Shown: positions 15,173 through 62,406 of the stretch, in pieces
Layout of the letters: every line of letters starts with the position of its first letter
How positions within the stretch are numbered: the stretch's first letter is position 1
From: Octopus vulgaris
Lineage: Eukaryota
Length of the DNA: 64,000 nucleotides
Assembly: GCA_951406725.2 (NCBI GenBank)
Contig: OX597820.1
Location: 33,294,001-33,358,000 of the forward strand
Direction: 5' to 3'
The notes under the pieces: generated by a model
The model's input: only the letters and a program-made list of their open reading frames with translations
Told to the model about the DNA's origin: nothing
The model's database searches: none
Position numbers and translations under genes: made by a program

Positions 15173-15421
15173 TTAAAATTTTATAAAACTTTTAACATCC
15201 CTTCTCCATCTTTAATTGTTAGTTGAGTTTATATAGGATTGTATCCTTTATATGCTCATAACTTACATTTTACTTGTTAAATTTTCATATTTTTTAAATA
15301 AATACTTACAAGAGTAAGCTAAAATTTAATATGAAGAATCTTTGTTAGAAGTCTGACTTCGGACTCCCACCAATGTAAAAATTGAACTCAACCTTTCTCA
15401 TATAAATTATATATATATATA

Positions 15422-17048
15422 CAGTTACGGCCAAAATGTTCAGAACGGTATTGCTTTCTCAGAAAAGTAAGTATAAGTTTTTATCAAAGTAGTTTTATAT
15501 TCATAATTTTCACAGACAATAAATACAATATTAATTGTTATTGTCTGAGATTTTGGTGTAATTTGAGAGGATAATACAAAAGTTATGGATGATTTAGTGA
15601 TTTACTGCAAAACCCATGGCGGCCAAAATGATCAGAACGGTTGAAAAAATAACAAAATAATCAAAAATGACAGAGAATACTGGAATTATTTAATATTTAG
15701 TGTGAAGCCCTTTAGCTTCAATCACACTCTGACATCTTCGACTGCATGAGGAAATTAAATTTTCAATTTCTTGCTGGGTGATCTTATTCCATTCTTCCTG
15801 AAGGGCATTCCATAATTGCTCAGTTGTTTTAGGATTTCTGGCTTTCGAACGTTCTCCTAGAATATTCCATACATTTTCAATAGGATTGAGATCTGGGCTT
15901 TGAGCAGGCCAATCCATAACAATAACCTTTTCAGCCTTGAGGAAGTTCATGACCACTTTAGCCTTGTGACATGGGGCATTGTCCTGCATGAATATGGGTG
16001 GTCGCTTAGTTGAATTTCTCAGCACAGGCAAGACATGATCTTTTACAAGTTGTTTATAAACTCCTGCATTTACCTTTCCATGTAATCGCACCAAAGGGCC
16101 CACACAATCTCCAGATATCATCCCCCAAACCATGACACTTCCTCCACCGAATTTAACACTAGTCTTAAGGCATTTAGGCGACAATTTTTCACCTACTTTT
16201 CTACGAACGTACCTTTTCCCATCTGAGCCAAATAACATAAACTTAGATTCATCACTGAAATGCACCGTTTGCCATTTTTCTTGAGACCACAACACATGTT
16301 CGGTTGCAAAGGTAAGACGACACTTTTTATTCTTGGAGCTGATCAGTGGCTTCACTGCAGGTGCTCTTGCTTGTAGGTCATGTTCAACTAAACGACGAGA
16401 CACAGTTTTTCGAGATAAAGTTTTCTTCAATACAATGCTCATTTTCCGAGAACCAGCAGCAGCAGTTTTAAATTCTGTCCTTTTTAACCAACTTTACCAT
16501 AGCACGATCTTCTCTCTTGGTCGTTTTCTTGGCCTACCTGTAAACTTTCTTGCTTCACACGAACCACAATCATCGTAGACCTTAAGAATACCGTGTACAA
16601 CACTTTTTGACTTGTTAACAATCTTTGCAATAGATCCAATACTTAAATTATCCTTCCTTCGAAGCTTAATAATCTGCTGACGAATTGGTAACAGAGTAAG
16701 TGGCATTATATTAACAAAGTACACTGCAAATATTCTTACTAATGTTTAGTAAACGAACCATCACGTAAACAAATTCAAAACATTAGAGTTCGCCGGTTAA
16801 ATATACTAAAACACGGAGTAAAAGCAACCGTTCTGATCATTTTGGCCGCCATGGGTTTTGCAGTAAATCACTAAATCATCCATAACTTTTGTATTATCCT
16901 CTCAAATTACACCAAAATCTCAGGCAATAACAAATAACATCGTATTTATTGTCTGTGAAAATTATAGAATATAAAACAACTTTGATAAAAAATTATATCT
17001 ACTTTTCTGACGAAAACAATGCCGTTCTGAACATTTTGGCCGCCACTG
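15422..17048 (-). mobile_element. Tc1 DNA transposon, IR/DR type, ~220-bp TIRs, TA target site
   Basis: TIRs 15422-15643 and 16825-17048. Each has two direct repeats GGCCAAAATG(T/A)TCAGAACGG. Flanked by TA within (TA)n. DD34E transposase inside. Confidence 0.95.
15690..16706 (-). pseudogene. Tc1 transposase (DD34E), ~338 aa, with two compensating 1-bp frameshifts
   Basis: N-terminal HTH and GRPRK, then FSDESKF, MQDNAPCH, SPDLNPIE (34 residues between D and E). The N- and C-terminal ORFs share one frame; indels lie near 16525 and 16473. Confidence 0.9.
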
Positions 17049-17074
17049 TATATATATATATATGTGTATATATA

Positions 17075-17744: not shown

Positions 17745-18740
17745 CAGACGACTTCGGAATCTCCTGCAACTCTTCTGGACAGACTCTTTGTTTAGGTTGG
17801 TGAATACTGCCATAACGCTTACCTTCAGTTCATCTTTGGTGATACAAGAAGTTTTGTTGGTTCCTTAGTCAACTGCGCCCCACACATAATAATCAGGTGG
17901 GTTGCAATCTGGGGAGTTAGGTGGCCAGATGTTTGGGGTGATGTGGTCGCAGAAATTGTCTGACCCCCATGACTGGCTTCTTACACTTGTGTGGCATGGT
18001 GCAGAGTCCTGTTGCTAGACATAGGGTCTTCCAGCAGCCACCCTCTTGACCCAGGACAGCACTACCTCCTTCAGGCACTTGATGTAGGCCTCCGTGTTGA
18101 GTTTGAGGCCGTGTGGGAAGCTGAATGGAGGTATAACGTCGCTATCACTATTGATCACCAAAGACACCATGATGTTGACTGAATTTTTGATTTTTATCAT
18201 TCTTGGTACATGTCCTCAGAGTGCACAGTCTTCAGGTTGACACCAGACACTCTGAAATGTCCGTACTGAAGCTTCCAGCGCGACTGGCAAGCAATACAGC
18301 ATGTCGTTTCCACATTTCTGGCAGAGTGAATTGCGTCACGGTGTTGTTTTTCTCACAGATATTGTTATATTTCGGAAGAGTCATTTTTTTTTGCCAAATA
18401 AACACACGCGCTATATATTCATTCTTCACTCGTTATTATTGTTCTTATCTTATCTTATATTCCATTGTCTGGAAATCTTTCGTCACACACCTGTGGTCTC
18501 TTCAGCGGCTCTTTCACCACACACGTGTATCCTGTTTTGTTTAGTCCATTCTTGTGGGCTGAACATGGACTAAACAGAACAGCAGGGCGCATGAGTGGAG
18601 GAAGAGTCGTTGAAGAGGTCACAGATGTGAGACTGAAGATTTCCAGACAATGGACGTAAGATAAAACAATAATATCGAGTGAATAACGAATATATAGTGC
18701 GTGTGTATATTTGGCAAGAAAAAAATATAACAATATATAC
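17745..18740 (-). mobile_element. Decayed DD37D (maT-like) Tc1/mariner element
   Basis: Minus strand VIPPFSFPHGLKLNTEAYIKCL...QQDSAPCH-...-SPDCNPPDYYVW, with 37 residues between the two Ds. Stops and an internal deletion. Confidence 0.85.
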
Positions 18741-19211: not shown

Positions 19212-19212
19212 G

Positions 19213-19306
<94 letters not shown>

Positions 19307-19307
19307 C

Positions 19308-19358
<51 letters not shown>

Positions 19359-19416
19359 TAAAATATTATTATTAAAAATATTATTAAAAATAATAATAAT
19401 AATAAAAAGAAACTCA

Positions 19417-19447
<31 letters not shown>
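19212..19447. repeat. (AAT)n switching to (ATT)n microsatellite
   Basis: Direct inspection. Confidence 0.95.
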
Positions 19448-19449
<2 letters not shown>

Positions 19450-22422
19450 GACAATCTTTTGCACTTCTTGCAGGGATGGTAAGCCAGGGATCATTCTCAT
19501 ATAATTTTCGGTTCCCTTCTTGATCATTCCTAGTGCTCCTACGATCACTGGTATTGTAACCGCCTTGAGATGCCACATTTTCTCAATTTCAATGAGTAGG
19601 TCTTTATATTTTCTGAGCTTGTCAAACTCTTTCGCTGAGATATTATGATCACAGGGGATGCTCATGTCGATCAATAAGCAAACTTTATTGTTTTGGTCTT
19701 TCACAACAATATCTGGTTTATTGGCCTTGATGGTTCGGTCTGTATGTACTGGAAAGTCCCACAGAATGGTTACATTTTCTCCTTCAGTTACAGCCTCAGG
19801 GTGGTGATTATACCACTTGTCGGCAGTTTTGATATTGTAATGCCGACTTATTAGCCAGTGGAGATATTGGCCAACTCTGTCATGTCTTAATTTATACTCC
19901 ACTGGTGCTAAGACTTTACATCCAGAGATTAGGTGGTCCACTGTTTCAATCATGTCGTTGCAGAATCGGCATTTTGGGTCTGCTCCATTTTTCATCACAT
20001 TGGCCTGGTAGTTCCGGGTTAATAGGCTTTGGTCTTGAGCAGCCAGGATGAAACCTTCGCTCTCTGCTTTTAGCCCTGAGCTCCGCAGCCACTGATGGGT
20101 TTGCTTCTGGTCAACATCAGCTTGTTTGCTGCGGGTCACATATTTGCCGTGCAGAGGTTTCTCCTCCCACCTATCAGCCAATTGCTCGTGCGCTTTTTTC
20201 ATTGCCATCATTTTCACCTTCTTTGCAACAATAGTTGCCGTACTTCCCTCGGGTTGTTCAGTTTGGGTATCCTGCACGAGATCAATAGCAAATTTTTTGC
20301 TTTCCTTGATGATAGAATGAAGCTTCTTTCGTCTCTCGTGATTTTCCACGAGCTTTAGCATCCAGTCATTCGATATTTCGAGATATTTGGCCAGTCCAAT
20401 TGTGGTTGTTTTGTAAGCTATTTCAAATTGGATCAGGCCTCGACCTCCTTGGGCTCTGGGAAGGTAAAGGCGATCTACGTCTGCCTTTGGGTGGTGCATC
20501 CTATTACAACTCAGCAGCTTGCGTATTTTTCTATCTATATTCTTTACTTCACTCATATTCCAGTTCAACACATTGTAGCTATAAGTAACAACTGGAACTG
20601 CTAAGGAATTTATAGCTAATACCTTGTTACGTGCATTTAGTTCAGATTTCAGGACTGCACGAACTCTCCTATAACATTCCTTCCTGATTTTCTCTTTCAT
20701 GCTTGCATGCTGAATACCAGAGCCTTCATTTATCCCTAAATATTTGTATGTCTGTTCTTGCTCAAGCTCTCTTATGACTGTGTCAACATCTAACACGACT
20801 GAATTTGTGGTCTTCACTTTCCCTTTCTGGAAAGTGGCCTTGGCACACTTCTCAAGTCCAAACTCCATCCCGATGTCATCGCTGAATGCTTTCACTGTGC
20901 GCAATAGGCCTTCAAGTTCATTATTGTCTTTACCATAAAGTTTTAAGTCATCCATATAAAATAGATGGCTTATTTTTTTATTGGCAATTTTATACCCATA
21001 CCCTGTTCTGTTTAATTCACTTGTAAGGGGTATTAGGGCTATGCAGAATATTAAAGGTGAAAGTGAGTCACCTTGAAAAATTCCACAGTTGATGTTTATA
21101 TTTTCTGAGGCAAGTACTCCATTAGAGTGGTATAATTGGAGATTCGTATTCCACAACGACATATTGTGCTTCAGGAAGTTTGAAATCACAGGGGAAATTT
21201 TAAAGATGTCCAGCGATCTCAAGATCCATGGATGCGGTATACTGTCGAAGGCCTTTTTATAGTCAATCCATGCGGTGCTGAGATTTCTGCGCTTGTTGTG
21301 ACAGTTCTCAAGGATCATACGATTGATTAGCAGTTGATCTTTGCATCCGTAAGAGCCTCGGCGGCACCCTTTTTGTTCAATGGGGAAAATATCGTTCTTC
21401 TCCATGAATGCATATGTTTTCTCCGCCAGGATAGATGTTAGGATTTTATACGTGGTGGATAGACAGGTTATAGGCCGATAGTTTTTTGGAAGGTTGGTTT
21501 CGTTATTCTTTGGGAGTAGGTAAGTAATGCCACTTGCTAACCATTCAGGTGTTTTCTTTGGGTCTCTCAAAATTCCATTAAGCAGCTGAACTAGCTTACC
21601 GTGTGCGCACGGGAGCGATGCGAGCCAGAAATTCGGCACCCTATCTTTACCGGGGGATTTCCAATTATGGGCCTTCGTGAGTGCCTTTCTTAGGTCTGCT
21701 ATTGTGATGTCTTCCCATGCTTGTTGTTGTAAATTTTGGTAGGATCCTTGAGTTTGTATAATCCAGTCTGCATTTATGTTGTACGTCTTCTTGTCACTCC
21801 AAATCCTTTCCCAAAAGTTTTGAACTTCTTCCATGGGAGGAGGGTCTTTAACGGTTACTTTCTCCTTCCCTATTTCTCTGTAGAATTTTTTGGCATTGGA
21901 TGTGAACAGCTTATTTTGCTTGTAAAACTTGTTTCTCTTCTCAAATCTTCGTATTCTTTGGGCTTTTGCTTGGACTTTTTGTTTCAGCCTTTCTTTTATT
22001 GATATCAGTTCTTCTCTTGGTGAGGATCCAAATTTTCTCTTCATCTTTCTTCCTGTTCTGGATCTTACATCATTTCCACATATTAGTTCATTTAATATTG
22101 ATATTTCCCCTCTCATAAATTCAATCTCTTTTTCAATTTTACTTCTCCAGGTTTGATTTCTTCCCAGGTTTTGTTTTCTTTGTTTTTTCGGGGGCATACA
22201 GCTGGTTTCAATTGCCCTAGCAGAAGCGTAAATAATTTCATTTAACTCAGTAAAATCAGGTTTTAATTCTCGTATTATTTCATTTGTTACATAGTTGGCA
22301 ATTTGGATTTGTTTTTTATTTTGGTTTGTATTTGAGAGTTTATGAAGCGGTTCTCTATCATTCATACTTGTATGTCTTACAACTTCAAGCGTATTCAGGA
22401 TTTTCTGCCTCATTTCTGCCAT
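19414..22422 (-). CDS. Reverse transcriptase / CCHC zinc knuckle / restriction-like endonuclease polyprotein (frame open upstream to ~22677)
   Basis: Motifs KSPGKD, NYRPITCL, EQKGC, WIDYKKAFDS, GIFQGDSLSP, YMDD, YKYLG, GGRGL, HGKY, CRFC..ETVDHLISGC, RHD, KPDIVV..IDMSIP..K. No internal stops. The last codons read into (ATA)n. Confidence 0.92.
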
Positions 22423-22757
22423 AGACTCTCTGTGTTCTTCAGCAAATGCGAGATCTTCAGTTACTGTTGTTTTTTCGTTTTCCTGGCTATCTTTAACAGG
22501 TACAATAGAATTTCTTGTATCTTCAGGCCTTTGCGTACTTTGGTCAGATGGCAGTCTTTCAATTAAGCCTCGTGGCGGGCTATACTGTTCATCTGATTCT
22601 TCATTTCCTTTGTGTCTTATATTTATGTCATTTTCCGTTGCGTGCTTGATCGCACTTATTTCACTGTCTGTGAGTCTTATTTCTAAAGATATCCCTCCTC
22701 ACATTTGCTAATTTGTTCTCGTCCAAATAGGGCCTACTGTCTTGATTGTCTACTGTC

Positions 22758-22758
<1 letters not shown>
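19448..22758 (-). mobile_element. R4/Dong-clade non-LTR retrotransposon, element 1, in (TAA)n; truncated at both ends
   Basis: Single ORF with RT, CCHC and RLE domains. Both ends abut TAA repeats. An N-terminal remnant YLDENKLANVRRDI lies at 22690-22730. Confidence 0.95.
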
Positions 22759-22827
<69 letters not shown>

Positions 22828-22859
22828 CATTATTTTTTTTAATAATATTTTTAATAATG

Positions 22860-22940
<81 letters not shown>
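22759..22940. repeat. (TTA)n microsatellite between the two Dong-like elements
   Basis: Direct inspection. Confidence 0.95.
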
Positions 22941-22943
<3 letters not shown>

Positions 22944-23944
22944 TAGTTTTATTTTTATAGCGTGCTTTCACTTCACTACCGAACGCAGCTCTGTGTGCCT
23001 TGGGTATGTGCTGTGATTTGTTGTGATGCTCTGATGGTTATTGTATGGAAAGTGTTCTGCGTAGGATGTGTGCAGTGCCTAGTAGTGCAATTTTCTGTAT
23101 GTTATATGTGTTTGTAAGCCCTGGTGTTTTTATTATGTATTTGTCTGAATATTTTTTTATCATGCCTAATGCACCTACTATGATAGGAATTGTTTCTGTT
23201 TTTAGATTCCTCATTCTGGTTATCTCTATTTCCAGGTCTTTGTATTTTGAAAGTTTCTCCATTTCTTTTAGAGACACGTTGTCATCTGCTGGTATTGATA
23301 CATCAATTAGAAAGCTTTTTTTTCTTCATGATCTCTGACAACTATATCTGGTCTGTTGGCCTTAATTTCTCTATCTGTGTGTATCGGCATATCCCAGAGT
23401 ATGGTTGCATTCTCGTTTTCTGTGACCTTTTCTGGTGGGTGCCTATACCATCTTTTTTCTGTTGTTATTTCATAATGTTGGCATAGCTTCCAGTGTATGT
23501 AGGTCCCAACTCTGTCATGTCTGTGAATATATTCCTTCTTAGCCAGGACTGGGCAGCCAGAGATAATATGATTTATTGTTTCTTGTCCATCTCCACATAT
23601 TCTGCAGTTACTTGTAATATTTCTTTTCATTACATGTTTTTGGTAATTTCTGGTGGGGAGGCTTTGGTCTTGTGCTGCAATTAAAAATCCCTCTGTCTCT
23701 GCTTTGAGTCCTGAGCTTCTCAACCATTGCTGGGATTTTTCTTTGTCTATTTCTTTTGCATTTAGTTTAGTCCAGTATTTACCATGAAGGGGCTTTTCTT
23801 GCCATCGTTTTATCATGGTTCTTTGCTGTTCTAGTTTTAGTTTGGATTTCATTTGTCTTATAGCTTTTGTTGTTTCTTCATCTTCTTCTTCTTCTTCTTC
23901 TTTTTCTTCTTCTTCTTCTTCTTCTTCTTCTTCTTCTTCTTCTT

Positions 23945-23975
<31 letters not shown>

Positions 23976-25581
23976 TTTGTTAGGTGGTATGATTTCTTGT
24001 TTGTATTTGTCAGCTTCCTTAAATACTGAGAACAGATTTTTGTTTTGCTCGTGTTTTGCCGCTATTTGTATCCGTTTTCCTTCCTTCTGAAGTAGATATT
24101 TTTGCAGTCCTATAGTGGTTATTTTATAGTAGTTTTCCAGCTGTATAAGGCCTCTACCAACTTCTATACGTTGTATATATAGTCTTTCTATGTCAGATTT
24201 TGGGTGATGCATCCTAGATCCTGTCATTATTTTTCTTGTTTTCCTATCTATTTCGGTCAGTTCATTTAGTGTCCAGTTAAGGATAGTGTAGCTGTAACTT
24301 ATAACTGGGACAGCTAAAGTGTTGATACCTATTATCTTGTTTTTAGCATTGAGCTCTGTCTTTAGTATTGATCTAACTCGTCTATAATATTCTTTCTTTA
24401 TTTTCTCTTTCATTTGTGTGTGTTGTGTCTTATCTAGTTCATGGATTCCTAAATATTTGTAAGTTTGGCTTTGGTCTAATTCTTTATTTCATTGGTTTTT
24501 TCTAGCGTTATGTTGCTACTCTTAACTAGTTTTCCTCTTTACAGGATTACTTTGGCGCATTTTTCTAATCCAAATTTCATATCTATTTCTTTGGTAAATC
24601 CATGAACTGTCTTTAATAGTGTTTCCAGCTGTTTGTCATTTGCAGCGTATAGTTTTAGGTCATCCATATATAAAAGGTGGCTGATCGTTTTGCCGTAACA
24701 TTTATATCCGCATCCAGTTCTATTTAGCATATCAGATAGAGGTGACAGTGCCAAGCAGAAAAGGAGTGGAGAGAGCGTGTCTCCCTGGAATATTCCTCTT
24801 CTAATGGGGATGGCTTTGGTTTTCATGAGTCCCTCTTTTGTTTGGAGCTGTAGCACTGTTCGCCAATTATTCATAGAGTGACCTATGTATTTTATAATTG
24901 TTGGTGCTACTTTGTTAATGGCTAGTGTTTCGAGGATCCATGTGTGGGGGATGCTATCAAACGCCTTTTTGTAGTCGATCCATGCCATACTGAGGCCTTT
25001 CTTCTTTCTGTGGCTGTCGCCAGTAATGGCTTTATTGATCATTAGTTGATCTTTACAGCCATATGAGCCTTTGCGGCATCCTTTCTGCTCTTCTGGAAAC
25101 AGGTTGTTTTCGTCCAGGTGCTTGTTTAATCTTTGTGATATTACTGCAGTAAATGCTTTGTACATTGTAGGGAGACAGGTTATAGGTTTGTAGTTTTCTG
25201 GTTTTGCTGTCTCATTGGATTTGGGAATTAAGATGGTTTTCCACTTCGTGAGCCATTCAGGCATTGTCTCTGGCTCTGCCAGTATGTTGTTAAAGCTTTC
25301 AGCCAGCTTTTTGTGTATTCCTGGTAGATATTTCAACCAGAAGTTGGGGATCTTGTCATGCCCAGGTGCCTTCCAGTTGCTTAGTCTTTGCAGTGCCTGG
25401 GTGACCTCTTCAGTTGTTATGGGGGTCCAAAGTTGCTCAGATGCTATGTTTGTTGTTTTAATACTCCTTTTTTTTTGGTTGTTCATTCGTCGACCATATT
25501 CCTTTCCAGAATTCTTCCACTTCTTCTGCCGTTGGTGCTGCAGTGATATCTATTTTATTCTTGCCAAGTTCTTGGTAGAAC

Positions 25582-25583
<2 letters not shown>
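22941..25583 (-). mobile_element. R4/Dong-clade retrotransposon, element 2 (different family), 5'-truncated, with intact 3'UTR
   Basis: ORF pieces 24539-25486 (RT: YKPITCL, DYKKAFDS, QGDTLSP, YMDD), 23973-24413, 23307-23852 (CRIC..HIISGC, RHD, RPD) and 23038-23277 (GTAHILRRTL*). A ~97-nt 3'UTR runs into (AAT)n. Frameshifts and stops present. Confidence 0.95.
23873..23972 (-). repeat. (GAA)n expansion inside the element-2 ORF
   Basis: (TCT)n on the plus strand, in frame as poly-Glu. Confidence 0.9.
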
Positions 25584-25647
<64 letters not shown>

Positions 25648-25687
25648 CATTATTATCATTATTATTATCATTATCATTATCATTGTG

Positions 25688-25993
25688 AGGGCGCGTGGCT
25701 TAGTGGTTAGGGCATTCGGCTCATGATCGTAAGGTTGTGAGTTCGATTCCCGGCGACGCGTTGTGTCCTTGAGCAAGACACTTTATTTCACGTTGCTCCA
25801 GTCCACTCAGCTGGCAAAAATGAGTTGTACTTGTATTTCAAAGGGTCAGCCTTGTCACTCTCTGTGTCACGCTGATTATCCCCGAGAACTACGTTAAGGG
25901 TACACGTGTCTGTGGAATTCTCAGCCATTTGCACGTTAATTTCACGAGCAAGCTGTTCCGTTGATCGTATCAGCTGGGACCCTCGTCGTCGTA
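25688..25993 (+). mobile_element. tRNA-derived SINE (family B-type head)
   Basis: GGCGCGTGGCTTAGTGGTTAG A box, GTTCGATTCC B box, then GTGTCCTTGAGCAAGACACTT. Confidence 0.8.
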
Positions 25994-26115
25994 ACCGGCG
26001 GAGTCTTTTTTTTTTAATCATTATCATTATTAGTATTAGTATTATTATTATGATTATTATTATTTTCATTATTATTATTAATATTATTTATTATTATTTT
26101 GATTATTATAATTAT

Positions 26116-26506
26116 ATGCCTCGATGTAGTACCAGGCAGTGGCTCTCATAGTTTTTGATCTTAACTGATTGGAAGTGTTATCATGTTCATGTTTTCTCTT
26201 AGTATCAAAAGACGGGCTACAGCAAATACTCTACTCAGTACTACAGATTTGCTTGTCAGTTGTTTGATTTTAAACAGTTGAGCAAGTCCCTCCCTTGGTG
26301 GCTGACGATATATGCATCTCTGATCACGAGCAGAAGTAGTGGATAAGCATCATGTGTTGAGAGGAATTCTTTGGGGTTTGAAAAATTCACTCCTGCAAAC
26401 GTAGGTGTTTCGTTCATCATCCATAAACAGACCTTATTAAGGGACCTTTTGAGCGTAATGGGCTACTCAAGCTGAAGAAAATTCTAACTGGGCCCCACTT
26501 GCAAGG
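26116..26506. mobile_element. Unclassified interspersed repeat fragment abutting (TTA)n
   Basis: Sharp boundary with the TTA tract. Resembles a common octopus repeat from memory; no diagnostic motif. Confidence 0.3.
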
Positions 26507-27736
26507 GCAAACTCTTCATGGATCTTTGGTCAAAGATGGTGATATCTATCTTCAGACCTTTTAAGTTTCGTCCATTGCACGATTTTTTTCACCAAGGCCA
26601 CCAATCAGATACAGTGAGTTATGTTCTTCCAGGCCGAAGAATGGCGATGTAACTCTCTTCACAATGAGCTCAGCTAAAAGCCGGATCCATTTCTTTTGAA
26701 TGGATGTCTGGCAGGAATTAACAGATGTTATCACTTGGAGTGAGACAAAAAATATACTTAACGTTCCAATAATAGGAAATACGATTGTATTGTTCAAGTT
26801 TGATACTGAATGGTTATATCCTGGAGAAAACAATAAAGGAAGGAAAGAAAGAAAGAAAGAAAGAAAGAGGGTAGGAAGAAAACAAAGAAGAAAAGAAAGA
26901 AAGTAAAGAGCAAACAAACGAGCAGCGAATCCGGCTCTTCATGTTGGTGCAAGTAATATACACGAGAAAAAAAATAAAGATTTCTAAACGAAGCAAACAG
27001 CTGTTGATATTGGTGGTGATGGTCTAGCTATTGCTGCTGTTGCTGCTGCTGCTGTTGTTGTTGATGTTGTTAAGCAACAAGACGAGTATGGGTGATTAGG
27101 TGATGGTCTAGGGCTTAGGGGCGGGAGACCCCAGACATTGGAAAAAAAAACTTTGGTTGTCTTGTTGTAGTCGAGGGCTCTTCGTTGACGCCCGACACCA
27201 CTGGGAGGTGACCCTCGAAGTCGCTGGAAATGGAGATCTCCAGGTCCAAATTCTTGGACGGCTCCTGCTGCTGCTGCTGCTGCTGCTGTTGTTGTTATTG
27301 TTGTTGTTGTTTTCTTGTAGCCCCGTGCGTGTTCAAATCCAGCTAGTGACATGCGATTCATCGTTGAAATGGCTTGGCAGCAGACATAGATATAATCTTA
27401 CCGATATGCTCTGCTGCCACACAGCGGCAGGAAAAAATAAAAAGGAAAAAAATGCTTAAAGTGAGAATAAATGCATTTCAAAATTACTTTAAAACTTCGA
27501 TCTGTCCAAGTTCGAAAGAAACTATTAAGGGCAGTAATTACTACAATTTATAATTATATTGCACCAGAATTTTTATTGAGGCATTTTTTGCCGAAATATC
27601 AGTGATGTAAATATTATATTTATCGAGATCAAAATAAATTTCTTCTTACAGAACGGTACTCCTTCTTTTTATTTTCTTTTTCTTTTTGTTTTTTGTTTGA
27701 TTGCTTTTTTTTGTTGTTGCTTACTTGTTTCAGTAG

Positions 27737-27990
27737 AGGCGCGTGGCTTAGTGGTTAGGGTGTCAGCACCATGATCGTAAGATTGTGGTTTCGATTCCTG
27801 GACCGGGCGACGCGTTGTGTTCTTGAGCAAAAAAAATTCATTTCACGTTGCTCCAGTTCACTCAGCTGGCAAAAATGAGTAACGCTGCGATGGACTGGCG
27901 TCCCGTCCAGGTGGGGAACACATACGCCATAGAAACCAGGAAACCGGGCCCACGAGCCTGGCTAGGCTTTAAAAGGGCGCATTTATTTAT
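27737..27990 (+). mobile_element. SINE family B
   Basis: tRNA-like head, GCGATGGACTGGCGTCCCGTCCAG core, (TTTA)n tail. Confidence 0.85.
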
Positions 27991-44879: not shown

Positions 44880-45898
44880 TTCCAGTTGATAGATGAAATA
44901 AGGTGGATGAAGAATTTTTTCCCAACCAAGTTCTTCGATCTTCTGTGATGTGATCTTTGCAGTGTGGCGTCGCGCATTGTCCTGATGAAACATCACTCCT
45001 TTTCGATTCACTAAAGCGGTTTTTTCTTTCCTTCAAAGATTGCTTCAAACGCTCTAATTGCTGACAATAGATTTGAGCATTGATTGTTGCATTAGGTGGT
45101 AACAATTCAAAGTGAATTACTCCTTTGCAATCCCGCCTGATAGAGAGAAGAACCTTTTTCCCATGAAGTTCCCTTCTCGGTTATGGTTAAGCCTTTTCCC
45201 TTTTACCAAGCCAGTGTTTACGACGTTTAACATTTCGATAGAAGATCCATTTTTCGTCACCAGTTACAAATCAATCTAAAAAGGGTGAAATGAGTTCGCG
45301 AGAATGGAGAGAAAAGCAGATGTCAACTCGGGATTTGCAGTTGCTTTTGGACAATTCATGAGGCACCCATTTTCCAAGTTTAGGAACCTTTCCAAGTTGT
45401 TGAAGATGACTATGAACAGTTGTGTGGTTTGACCTAAGCTTTATTGCCAATTTTTCAACTGATAATGCAGGATTTTCTTCAAGTAATGCCTCAAGGAGCT
45501 TATCATCAAACTCAACTGGATGTCCTGTTCGATCTTCCTCTTCACGGCTGAAATCTCCACTTCTGAATTTTGCAAACCATCTTCAGCAAGTTCTTTCATT
45601 CAAGCATTCTTTCCCATAAACTGAGTGTATGTTCAGAGTCGCTTCGGCTACAGAGCTTCCTTTTTTGTACTCATAAAGCATTATGCGCCTTAAATGCTCT
45701 TTGGATACTTCCATGATAGAAAGGGTTTTAATCAAAGAAATTTTAATTCTATTATTCTGTAAAATAATATTTAATTAGTTTAAATATACACATATGCATA
45801 AAAATAATTTTCATTTCCATTAGACATTCTAAAATACTATTAAATTTCATTCAATTGTAAAAAAGGTAAAATCGAACTAAACTTATGGAATAACCTGA
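44880..45898 (-). mobile_element. Decayed mariner (DD34D-type) transposon
   Basis: MLYEYKKG, RWFAKFRSGD, GKWVPHEL, VTGDEKW, HQDNAR and HPPY. One TIR TCAGGTTATTCCATAAGT at the right end. Confidence 0.9.
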
Positions 45899-48627: not shown

Positions 48628-49570
48628 CATGCCATGTACAAAAGAAACCTTAGAGCTGTCCGAATTTCACAGAGGCCGTATTGTAGGTCAATCTGAAGGT
48701 GGGCTTAGTCAGTGTAAAACTGCAGTAATAAACCTTGGGATCCTGCTTTCTACAGTTAATATACTGATTGTGTAATTCACCAGAGAGGGGAAGGAGTCCA
48801 CATCACCTCACCCATGTTGAGCAGGGCCCTCTGACAGGACCCTTCGCTTTGTTAAGGGAAGTATGGATGGAAGATAATCCTGACAGCAGTTGTTGTCAGT
48901 CCCAGAACAGTTGTCAGGTATCTCCACAAACTTGGCTCCAATGGTTGAGCGGCAATAAGTAAGCCACTTCTTCAACAAGCCAATATGAAGTGGTAAAAAG
49001 ATTGGGCCAGTTATATGGTGGAGAAGTCACTATCATTTTGAGACACTGTCCTATTCGCTGATGAGTCTAGATTTGCTGTATTTTCTGACAAAGATCCAGC
49101 GTGGGTCTGAAGACTCTGTGATCAAAAATTTGATGTGAAAAGATTGCAGCCAACAATGAAACACGACAGCTATTCTGTGATAATCTGGGGAGCAATTTGG
49201 AACAATGGTCGATCAGAACTGGTGGAATGTGAGAGAAACATAAACTCAAATAAATATGTGTCCATATTGCAGAAAGGACTACTTTCAAGCTTCTTCAGTG
49301 GTGAAATGATTAAGAAGGACTCTTTATTTATGAAAGACGGGATCTTTGTCACACAGCTAAAAAGACCCACGACTGATTGGAAGACAATGGCATTATAAAG
49401 CTTTCATGGCCAAGCCAGTTACCAGATATGAATCCTATTGAACAACTCTGGGACATAATGGATAGGATATTTCATAAAAGAGAAAAGCCAGATCTTTTGA
49501 GATTACTGCATGAAACTTGGCAAGAAATTCCTGAAGAGAAAATTCATCATCTGATCAGTAGCCTGCCTAA
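48628..49570 (+). mobile_element. Decayed Tc1 (DD34E-type) transposase
   Basis: [26 protein letters not shown] and WPSQLPDMNPIEQLW, with frameshifts. Confidence 0.85.
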
Positions 49571-49593
49571 TATGTGTGTATGCATATATTATT

Positions 49594-49690
<97 letters not shown>

Positions 49691-49875
49691 GTGTGTGTGT
49701 GTTCACACAAAACTTAAGAGCGTTATCAAAACCAGGAATATAATGATGGAAAATATTAAAATATAACCGCTAATTTTCTGTTTTAGAGTGTACTCTCTTT
49801 TTCTGGTTTATAGACATCTAGATGATCATATGTGTGTAGGGGGGGGTGTATGTATGCATGTATGTATGTATAAAT

Positions 49876-55754: not shown

Positions 55755-56430
55755 CAGGGGTTGGACAAAATAATGGAAACACCTAGCATCTTAGCATCAT
55801 GATTTTGAAATATCTATAAAACCATCAAAAGCTTGTTCATTTTTGTTTTTTGATTTATTATTTAATAACCAGTTGATCTAGCAAGCGGGGCCTCATATCA
55901 GTGAGGGTGGCCGGTGCGCATTGATGCCGTCGAGAGGTAGGCCCCGAAACGGCGCGCATTCTTTCCTGATGACCCCATACACTTGCTGGCTTCTGGTATG
56001 CGGAATTCTCGACTGGTAGCACTTGCATGTGCAAGTTGTTTGCAAGACATGTTGCTTAATATGTTTTGCTAAAATTGCTGTTTCTTATCAGATATCATCA
56101 GAAAAAGACAATTAAAATTCATTAAAATGACAGATCTGTCGGACTTTCAAAGAGGTCAAATTATTGGTGCTCGTATGGTAGGCACTAGTGTAATGAAAAC
56201 AGCCGAAATGTTTGGTGTATCAAGAAGTATTGTCTCGAAAGTAATGACACCCTTTGAGAAAGAAGGAAAAACCTCCTCGTCGAAACAAAACTCTGGAAGA
56301 AAACCAAAACTTTCAGATAAGGACCGTCGAACTCTTAAGCGAATTGTTAGAAAGGGTCACAAAAGTACAGCTCCCAAAATTACTGCAGAGCTTAATGAAC
56401 ACCTCGAGAACCAAGTTTCCACGAAAGCTG
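55755..56430 (+). mobile_element. 5' half of a Tc1 element (left TIR plus transposase HTH), interrupted by a GC-rich insert
   Basis: TA|CAGGGGTTGGACAAAATAATGGAAACA, then ORF 56127 MTDLSDFQRGQIIGAR...SGRKPKLSDKDRR. No catalytic domain. Confidence 0.85.
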
Positions 56431-56629
56431 TGTCTATCTGAATAGCTATACTGAATTTCTCGTTCCTGAACCTCAGGTAACTGCTAACAGGATATTTGAA
56501 GCTGTTTCCAGCTTTAGGTCCTCACTGGGCCTTCTGTTTTTAGATTTGAGGGTGATTTAGTGTAGAGGTCACCTCGTCGGCTCGTTTTTGCTGCCGGTAG
56601 TAAATATGCTAATGGGGGAAAGCGAGAGG

Positions 56630-61680: not shown

Positions 61681-61803
61681 TTATTATTATTTAGCCGAGG
61701 TCGTCTTTGCCTTTCATCCTTTCGGGGTCGATAAATGAAGTACTAGTGAAACACAGGGGTCGATATCGTCATCGTCGTCATCGTTGTTGTTGATGTTATT
61801 ATT

Positions 61804-61894
61804 CAGTAGTCTTATTTTCATCGCGTGCTTTCACTGCAATACCGATCGTAGCTCTGGTGCCTTTGGTCTGTGCTGTGGTTTATTAGGGTGCTGA
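61804..61894 (-). mobile_element. Isolated 3'UTR of the Dong-like element-2 family
   Basis: CAGTAGTCTTATTTTCATCGCGTGCTTTCACT... aligns to 22941-23035; the 3' end again abuts TTATTATT. Confidence 0.8.
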
Positions 61895-61992
61895 GCGTCC
61901 AATAACACTATACTTGTTCCACATCCTCGCGTTGTTGTGTTTTCTCTTTGTTCATGTTTGGAGTAACCATATATATATATATACATATATAT

Positions 61993-62406
61993 AAGCATTT
62001 GTCTTATGAAGAAAGGCTGAAGACGCTCGACCTTTATTCTCTAGAAAAACGACGACGCCGTGGTGATCTCATTCTTGCTCACAACATCATAAGCGGTAAG
62101 TGTAACCTCTCGAAAGAGCTGTTCTTCACTCCTGCTCCAGAACGTCAGCTGCGGGGTCACTCCGAAAAGCTCCATCTGCGACGATTTCATCTCAATCGAA
62201 GGAGAGGGGCTTTCTCCGTCCGTTTTGCGGATCCGTGGAAAAGCTGCTGGACGAGATAGTCAAGATGCCGACGACCGCTCGGTTCAAAGTCTCCCTTGAC
62301 CACAAATGGCCTGAACTCTTTGCATGAACACCACCCGGTACATAACTCCATGTCTCCCTACATGGCCTTCCTTTTTGCTTTTTGAGCCAAAAAATTAACT
62401 TAACTT
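61993..62406 (+). mobile_element. CR1-type LINE 3' end
   Basis: LSYEERLKTLDLYSLEKRRRRGDLI...LRGHSEKL...FSVR..PW, a CR1 C-terminus. Short UTR ending (TTAAC)n. Confidence 0.88.

What the first reader, a model, noticed from the sequence alone, without database searches (positions are those of the whole stretch)
19212..26506. A (TAA)n array used as a landing pad by several Dong-type RT-RLE retrotransposons
Seen: two different RT-CCHC-RLE elements in the same orientation, each with both junctions in TAA repeats. A SINE and a further repeat follow in the same array, and a lone 3'UTR at 61804 again abuts TTATTATT. Known: Dong elements (R4 clade) insert into TAA repeats by target-primed reverse transcription. 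Inference: at least two co-existing TAA-specific lineages with fixed strand polarity in this genome.
Basis: partly seen in the sequence, partly recalled or inferred. Interest (0 to 1): 0.75.

Follow-up and report, generated by a model that had tools for sequence, protein, structure and literature searches.

The report
TAA-targeting retrotransposons and a hitchhiker
Two unrelated young retrotransposon families sit here, and across this animal genome almost always sit inside TAA repeats on one strand, as the known Dong elements do; an abundant 558-base non-coding repeat shows the same habit and likely borrows their enzyme, while the neighbouring SINE is a passenger.

Summary
Confirmed in substance, wrong in details. 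E1 (19449-22757, minus) and E2 (22941-25583, minus) are 5'-truncated RT-CCHC-RLE elements of two young families, 50% alike in protein. But E1's 3' junction here is a unique break (normal end lost), the array left of it has opposite polarity, the SINE is not TAA-specific (0 of 25 copies; own 12-bp duplication), and the 61804 fragment has TAA on one side only. TAA targeting by Dong, including in molluscs, is in print, as are many Dong-R4 families in octopus. Less expected: the 'further repeat' is a 558-bp non-coding family (11,958 exact 3' 25-mers), TAA-flanked in 36 of 41 copies and 5'-truncated, a likely non-autonomous partner; full-length copies carry private tandem re-copies of their first bases (14 of 25 E2 copies); and many pads are TAA tails of earlier retroelements. 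New members of a known kind; interest 0.5.

The parts
19214..19405 (+). (TAA)n array of opposite polarity to the elements; left boundary of the cluster
19406..19418 (-). 13-nt piece identical to the middle of the E1-family 3'UTR, stranded between two opposed arrays
   Evidence: 100% over 13 nt, E 0.18 against the whole window; position next to E1 makes chance less likely
19419..19448 (-). (TAA)10 standing in place of the E1 3' end
19449..22757 (-). E1: 5'-truncated RT-CCHC-RLE element, open frame of 1082 codons, C-terminus and 3'UTR missing; short re-copy of its own first bases at the 5' junction; 98.4% to copy L089
22758..22940 (-). (TAA)n array shared as E2's 3' flank and E1's 5' flank
22941..25583 (-). 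E2: 5'-truncated RT-CCHC-RLE element with intact 3'UTR, frame broken in several places, internal (GAA)n expansion at 23874-23974; 94-97% to copy L066
25584..25684 (-). (TAA)n array at E2's 5' junction, decaying to TGA units
25685..26015 (+). tRNA-headed SINE with a 12-bp target duplication (25673-25684, 26017-26028); family not TAA-specific
   Evidence: (tRNA 25.1 bits, under the cut-off of 29)
26020..26113 (-). degenerate TAA-type array
26114..26509 (+). old, 3'-cut copy (84%) of repeat X, a 558-bp non-coding family that elsewhere is TAA-flanked on both sides; this copy is not in the usual context
61796..61892 (-). E2-type 3'UTR fragment, 85% alike, two TAA units 3', another repeat 5'

Best explanation
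E1 and E2 are truncated copies of two young, distantly related Dong-type retrotransposon families whose copies sit almost only in (TAA)n and always with TAA on their sense strand, likely because their endonuclease nicks the TTA strand and the nick primes reverse transcription. Shown: architecture, copy numbers, junction statistics, polarity, excess microhomology with TAA at truncated 5' ends, and paralogous uninterrupted sites that already hold a TAA tract. Inferred: target-primed reverse transcription; 5' joining by annealing the cDNA end to the TAA strand, with repeated slip-back that re-copies the first bases; each insertion leaving fresh TAA on both sides, so that later insertions stack in the same orientation; and mobilisation of the non-coding repeat X in trans by one of these proteins (about 0.65). 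E1's 3' end here was likely lost in a one-off break and repair at a TTAA that mimics the array.
For: RVT_1 E 7e-30 and 3e-30; YMDD, CCHC, RH, PD..D, K..KY in E1; best solved folds are R2 proteins. 5' junction within 50 nt of sense (TAA)4+: E1 46 of 50 position-ordered copies (48 within 200 nt); E2 29 of 34 by script, 30 of 33 after hand check (one copy unresolved, one more within ~110 nt); polarity 76 sense, 0 antisense, 8 none of 84; background 0.64% in 200 kb at fixed coordinates, where TA, CA and other repeats are more abundant. 25 of 25 full-length E2 copies start within 150 nt of TAA. Microhomology of 2 nt or more in 21 of 34 mappable junctions (61 tried) against about 12% expected. A repeat with an internal TAA tract in uninterrupted copies L039 and L151 hosts a Dong (L010) and X (L188, L206) at that tract. 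47 of 115 upstream flanks fall in five clusters of retroelement 3' ends, 4 of them joined on simple repeat only. X: 36 of 41 copies picked by the 3' end have sense (TAA)4+ 5', only 18 of 41 reach base 1-3; 28 of 30 picked by the 5' end keep the 3' end; 5537 5' against 11,958 3' 25-mers.
Against: No enzyme assay; no true empty allele (skipped the repeat letters). No named Dong, R4 or Rex6 in the tree. In L068 a cluster with long arrays sits at a site where paralogous copies hold no TAA tract, and arrays round insertions (medians 87 and 63 nt) are longer than the 21-39 nt in the uninterrupted paralogues, so part of the TAA is made at or after insertion. Four of 83 resolved copies lack a (TAA)4 array (L040, L096, L026, L080). 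X shares no sequence with eight Dong 3'UTRs or two 5'UTRs, and its window copy is not TAA-flanked in sense. No HDV-like ribozyme found at either 5' end. The E2 sample was ranked by likeness to the window copy, not drawn at random.
Confidence: 0.86

Rival explanations
1. The TAA arrays are mainly products, not targets: the enzyme inserts at short or degenerate AT-rich sites and lays down (TAA)n itself, from a UAA-tailed RNA or by telomerase-like repeated copying, on both sides of the insert.
For: L068 site without TAA in paralogues; TAA filling the E1 break in the window; private tandem re-copies at 5' junctions, up to about 14 units of 68 nt in L267; (GAA)n runs at 5' junctions that match the element's first letters; arrays longer than in empty paralogues.
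Against: Paralogous empty sites with TAA already present; many 5' arrays are tails of older elements; excess microhomology fits annealing to an existing TAA strand; long microsatellites of every kind are common in this genome, so slippage after insertion explains length.
Confidence: 0.1
2. E2 and E1 arrived together: the RT jumped from the 5' end of one RNA to the UAA tail of another, so the tandem is a single event rather than stacking on a pad.
For: Same orientation; 20 of 104 clusters hold two or three inserts; template jumping by R2 RT is recalled from the literature.
Against: The window copies differ in divergence from intact relatives (E1 98%, E2 94-97%); 84 of 104 clusters are single inserts with TAA on both sides; partners include much older subfamilies and SINE tails.
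Confidence: 0.03
3. Copies insert anywhere and survive or are rearranged into TAA arrays passively.
For: Dong-like DNA is abundant (6.6 kb of 200 kb).
Against: Over 90% against 0.64% background, strict polarity, copies 98-100% alike, and a SINE control with 0 of 25.
Confidence: 0.01

Closest known systems
Dong (Bombyx mori), DongAg, DongBg; R4/Dong clade
   Same: Single ORF with RT and RLE; (TAA)n target, stated for insects, molluscs and cnidarians (PMC7998251, PMC3812793; passages seen); N-terminal helical domain with a W-T-x-E-E start and no N-terminal zinc finger, as described for the divergent SANT/Myb domain (PMC7998251).
   Different: Many lineages share one target in one genome at high copy; E1 has a ~2-kb 5'UTR (about 5.7 kb in all); no HDV-like ribozyme found, whereas B. 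mori Dong has one (PMC3774820, passages); frequent private tandem re-copies at 5' junctions.
Dong-R4 LINEs annotated in octopus genomes
   Same: PMC13282606 (text parts 1-2 of 3 and a search of its supplement) lists 5 recently active families and 51 families, 92.7 Mb; PMC8967140 and PMC9115989 (passages) also name Dong. The host here is probably an octopus (recalled look of its repeats; not tested).
   Different: None of the passages seen analyses targets, polarity or partners; whether E1, E2 or X are among those families could not be checked.
R2 (solved structures 9nl2, 9nl3, 8gh6, 9dou)
   Same: Best sequence and fold matches; microhomology and non-templated bases at 5' junctions (PMC2718515, passages).
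   Different: Only 15-19% identity; R2 targets 28S rDNA and has N-terminal zinc fingers.
EhSINE/EhLINE and R2 SIDEs (non-autonomous partners of RLE elements)
   Same: Non-coding RNA moved by an RLE retrotransposon (EhSINE: PMC1635306, passages; SIDEs: recalled).
   Different: EhSINEs have no specific target; SIDEs and EhSINEs share ends with their LINE (recalled), while X shares none with the Dongs tested and has no Rfam head. PMC5786205 (passage) lists RTE, Ingi and R2, not R4, as makers of bipartite non-autonomous LINEs.

Membership tests
Dong / R4 clade | RT followed by CCHC knuckle and restriction-like endonuclease in one ORF | tested here: met
   E2's PD..D and K..KY read across a frame change in the window
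Dong / R4 clade | Insertion in (TAA)n with fixed polarity | tested here: met
   46 of 50 and 30 of 33; 0 antisense of 84
Dong / R4 clade | Divergent SANT/Myb domain and no zinc finger at the N-terminus | tested here: inconclusive
   Four-helix domain, pLDDT 89; Zeste Z 5.3 (rmsd 2.9, 67 aligned) tied with unrelated folds, R2Bm residues 144-215 Z 4.5, TRF1 Z 4.8; no Foldseek hit at E<=0.001; no Pfam Myb in 37 proteins. No N-terminal CCHH seen.
Dong / R4 clade | RT groups with named Dong/R4/Rex6 in a tree | not testable with these tools
   Two searches gave no named reference; tree of 48 rows has none and no outgroup. Motif pattern matches the clade from recall only.
Dong / R4 clade | HDV-like ribozyme at the 5' end | tested here: inconclusive
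   No Rfam ribozyme in 4 loci; own descriptor 0 hits in E1 and E2 5' ends, run without a positive control; E1 starts with a compact hairpin region.
Dong / R4 clade | Nicking and TPRT on (TAA)n by the protein | not testable with these tools
   needs an assay
SINE (repeat X) | Head from tRNA, 5S, 7SL or snRNA | tested here: not met
   Rfam, E<=10, no such family
Non-autonomous retroelement (repeat X) | Non-coding, fixed 3' end, variable 5' truncation | tested here: met
   no long ORF; 28 of 30 against 18 of 41
Non-autonomous retroelement (repeat X) | 3' end shared with its partner LINE | tested here: inconclusive
   No likeness above shuffles to eight Dong 3'UTRs; lineages not sampled remain possible
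TAA-specific element (SINE 25685-26015) | TAA at both junctions | tested here: not met
   0 of 25 copies; ordinary target duplications

The most novel reading that the evidence does not exclude
This genome runs a self-feeding TAA niche: about eight Dong lineages plus a headless 558-bp parasite RNA (X, about 1% of sampled DNA, also abundant in two related organisms) that is targeted to a microsatellite by Dong protein without sharing Dong's RNA ends, each insertion renewing and lengthening the pad, with a joining step that re-copies the 5' end many times over. X would be a microsatellite-specific non-autonomous partner of the R4/Dong clade and a natural example of cargo RNA delivered site-specifically by an RLE protein.
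Probability: 0.5. Interest if true: 0.68.

Novelty: new member of a known kind. Interest (0 to 1): 0.5.

Why it matters
The Dong-TAA link itself is known. What this genome adds is scale: thousands of near-identical copies give junction statistics for a clade with no solved structure in the PDB searches, so microsatellite recognition, 5' joining and RNA choice become testable. If X is moved by Dong without sharing its ends, RLE proteins can be looser about cargo RNA than R2, which bears on RNA-based gene insertion tools. It would also explain much of this genome's long TAA microsatellites: 13 of 21 arrays in sampled DNA touch E1, E2 or X.

Tried and rejected
DNA search with E1's 3' part found nothing because common words are skipped; exact patterns were used instead. 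Read check of the odd E1 junction gave no verdict, as the tool skips repeat letters; an assembly error there is not excluded. Raw-read runs X9 and X10 laid only 11 and 53 reads on X, too few to use. No named Dong reference came from two protein searches; the tree is a quick one with SH-aLRT only and shows only that E1 and E2 are not sisters. HDV descriptor hits in X were internal and common in shuffles (12 of 30). Search for TAA-only inserts inside elements found five premature ends and none resuming in register. SINE as pad user: rejected. X as Dong 3'UTR, coding piece or DNA transposon: no likeness, no ORF, no terminal inverted repeat. Earlier findings of the scan: three look-ups, nothing. 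Not in print as far as searched: (open-access library only; Repbase, Dfam and the Zenodo library of PMC13282606 not seen). PMC309301 and PMC4795812 were not held, so X may be an already named octopus repeat.

Full report
Observation. The window is G000:C7:33294001-33358000 in a 2.80-Gb genome; the host is probably an octopus, from the recalled look of its repeats, not tested. Two elements lie on the minus strand: E1 (19449-22757) and E2 (22941-25583). Both carry RVT_1; E1 shows YMDD, a CCHC knuckle, RH, PD..D and K..KY in one open frame of 1082 codons; E2 has the same parts in broken frames. They are 64% alike in DNA where they align and 50% in protein against an open E2 copy, L066. Arrays reading TAA on the elements' sense strand stand at 19419-19448, 22758-22940 and 25584-25684.

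Corrections. E1's 3' junction is a break, not the element's end: 46 of 50 family copies continue through 14 more codons and a ~200-nt 3'UTR to a TAA array (44 by script, 2 by eye). The window's junction is the only one of its kind in the genome, against 2241 exact matches of the adjacent 42-mer. Beyond ten TAA units lies a 13-nt piece of the missing 3'UTR and then an array of opposite polarity. A one-off break with templated repair is the likeliest cause; reads could not test it. The SINE is a passenger: 0 of 25 position-ordered copies have TAA at either end, they carry ordinary target duplications, and the window copy has its own of 12 bp. The 61804 fragment is 85% alike to E2's 3'UTR, with two TAA units 3' and another repeat 5'.

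Family test. E1 copies were taken in genome order (50 of 2241 matches); E2 copies were 34 of the 40 best-scoring of 514 candidates, so ranked by likeness. A sense (TAA)4+ array lies within 50 nt of the 5' junction in 46 of 50 E1 copies and 29 of 34 E2 copies by script; by hand one more E2 copy qualifies, one is within ~110 nt and one is unresolved, giving 30 of 33. Polarity was sense in 76, antisense in 0, absent in 8 of 84. In 200 kb taken at fixed coordinates the same rule covers 0.64% of strand-positions, and TA and CA repeats are more abundant than TAA. 3' ends: 34 of 34 E2 and 48 of 50 E1 run into TAA-type arrays. All 25 full-length E2 copies examined, of 361 matches, begin within 150 nt of TAA. 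Full-length E1 is about 5.7 kb with a ~2-kb 5'UTR (56 matches to a 5'UTR pattern), E2 about 4.0 kb. RLE ends in the fetched loci show about eight 3'UTR types by eye. In a quick tree of 48 RT regions E1 and E2 are not sisters; it holds no named Dong.

Pad or product. Truncated 5' ends share 2 nt or more with the TAA phase in 21 of 34 mappable junctions (61 tried, 27 unmapped) against about 12% expected. A repeat with an internal TAA tract in uninterrupted copies hosts a Dong and two X copies at that tract. 47 of 115 upstream flanks cluster as 3' ends of E1-type, E2-type, a third Dong, X or a SINE-like repeat, 4 of them on simple repeat only: pads are often tails of earlier insertions. Against: in L068 long arrays stand where paralogues have no TAA tract, and arrays round inserts (medians 87 and 63 nt in 104 clusters) exceed those of the empty paralogues. 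So TAA is mostly target and partly product.

5' re-copying. 14 of 25 full-length E2 copies carry two to seven tandem copies of their first bases, with unit lengths private to each copy, mostly 18-28 nt. Truncated copies, including E1 here, show shorter versions; one X copy has about 14 units of 68 nt; contigs of organism B show go-back joints to X's first base, so this is not a long-read artefact. Repeated slip-back during second-strand priming is inferred; whether RT or host repair does it is open. PMC2718515 (passages) describes microhomology, non-templated bases and target duplications at R1/R2 junctions; I saw no multi-unit re-copy of the element's own start there.

Repeat X. The 'further repeat' is an old, 3'-cut copy of a 558-bp family with no long ORF, no Rfam head and no inverted ends. 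Exact 25-mers: 11,958 for the 3' end (one two-fold position) and 5537 for the 5' end. Of 41 copies in 40 position-ordered loci, 36 have sense (TAA)4+ within 50 nt 5', three more have three units, 37 have TAA 3', and 18 reach base 1-3. Of 30 picked by the 5' end, partly the same loci, 28 keep the 3' end and 23 have (TAA)4+ 5'. X covers 2535 of 200,000 sampled bases and is abundant in organisms B and C. This is the junction pattern of the Dongs, so mobilisation by a Dong protein is likely (about 0.65), but X shares no sequence with eight 3'UTRs or two 5'UTRs, and its window copy faces the other way.

Protein. The model of L066 (pLDDT 76.6) matches R2 proteins best (E 1.5e-25). Residues 98-190 fold as four helices with weak, tied matches that include Zeste, TRF1 and the R2Bm Myb region (Z 4.5-5.3), in line with but not proving the SANT/Myb domain of PMC7998251. 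No HDV-like ribozyme was found (no positive control).

What is known. TAA targeting by Dong in insects, molluscs and cnidarians is stated in PMC7998251 and PMC3812793 (passages). Dong-R4 in octopus, with 5 recently active and 51 total families, is in PMC13282606 (parts 1-2 of 3, supplement searched), with no target analysis in what I saw; PMC8967140 and PMC9115989 (passages) name it too. PMC3747384 (passages) gave nothing relevant. Searches found no TAA-specific non-autonomous partner; repeat databases and two key papers were out of reach.

Verdict. The hitchhiker X, the tail-as-pad cycle and the 5' re-copying raise it above routine. Interest 0.5.

Noticed in passing
window 15400-17050: Tc1/mariner element on minus with DDE_3 and HTH_Tnp_Tc3_2 (ORF 15690-16493); the end 16700-17050 shows a repeated 30-nt motif.
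   Followed up: no
window 18000-18720: Stretch that looks like a second DDE transposon remnant, with an inverted repeat of about 100 nt (about 18390-18490 and 18630-18720).
   Followed up: no
window 23874-23974; L068: An internal site of E2 is unstable: (GAA)33 after a TAA here, and a Dong cluster inserted at the same site in L068.
   Followed up: partly
L039, L151, L010, L175, L188, L195, L206: A repeat with a built-in internal TAA tract serves as a recurring pad for Dong and X.
   Followed up: partly
L167, L085; runs X4, X6, X9 at L098:1490: Another repeat shares X's middle (bases 106-270) with different flanks, so X may be composite.
   Followed up: no
L267:840-1760: About 14 tandem units of X's first 68 nt, all with one private variant.
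   Followed up: partly
L107, L111, L114, L055, L089, L099, L136: (GAA)n runs between the TAA array and the element's 5' end, matching the element's first letters.
   Followed up: partly
L036, L040, L083, L059: Other copies with premature 3' ends running into TAA, at A-rich or TAA-like internal spots; may be internal priming.
   Followed up: partly
L118, L112, L178, L027, L105: 5' inversions (fold-back junctions) in E1 and X copies.
   Followed up: no
window 27738-27975: Second SINE sharing the head of the 25685 SINE (83%) with a different body.
   Followed up: no
window 26510-26840: Single-copy stretch among the fetched loci, held in runs of organisms A, B and C; no ORF.
   Followed up: partly
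window 61990-62330: Fragment reading like the C-terminal end of another LINE ORF (recalled CR1/L2 look); further mariner-like fragments near 44880-45580, 49110-49760 and 56070-56440.
   Followed up: no
P0001, P0086: E1 is closer to an unnamed protein (63%) and groups with a Penaeus japonicus protein rather than with E2; old lineages or transfer between marine hosts, untested.
   Followed up: partly
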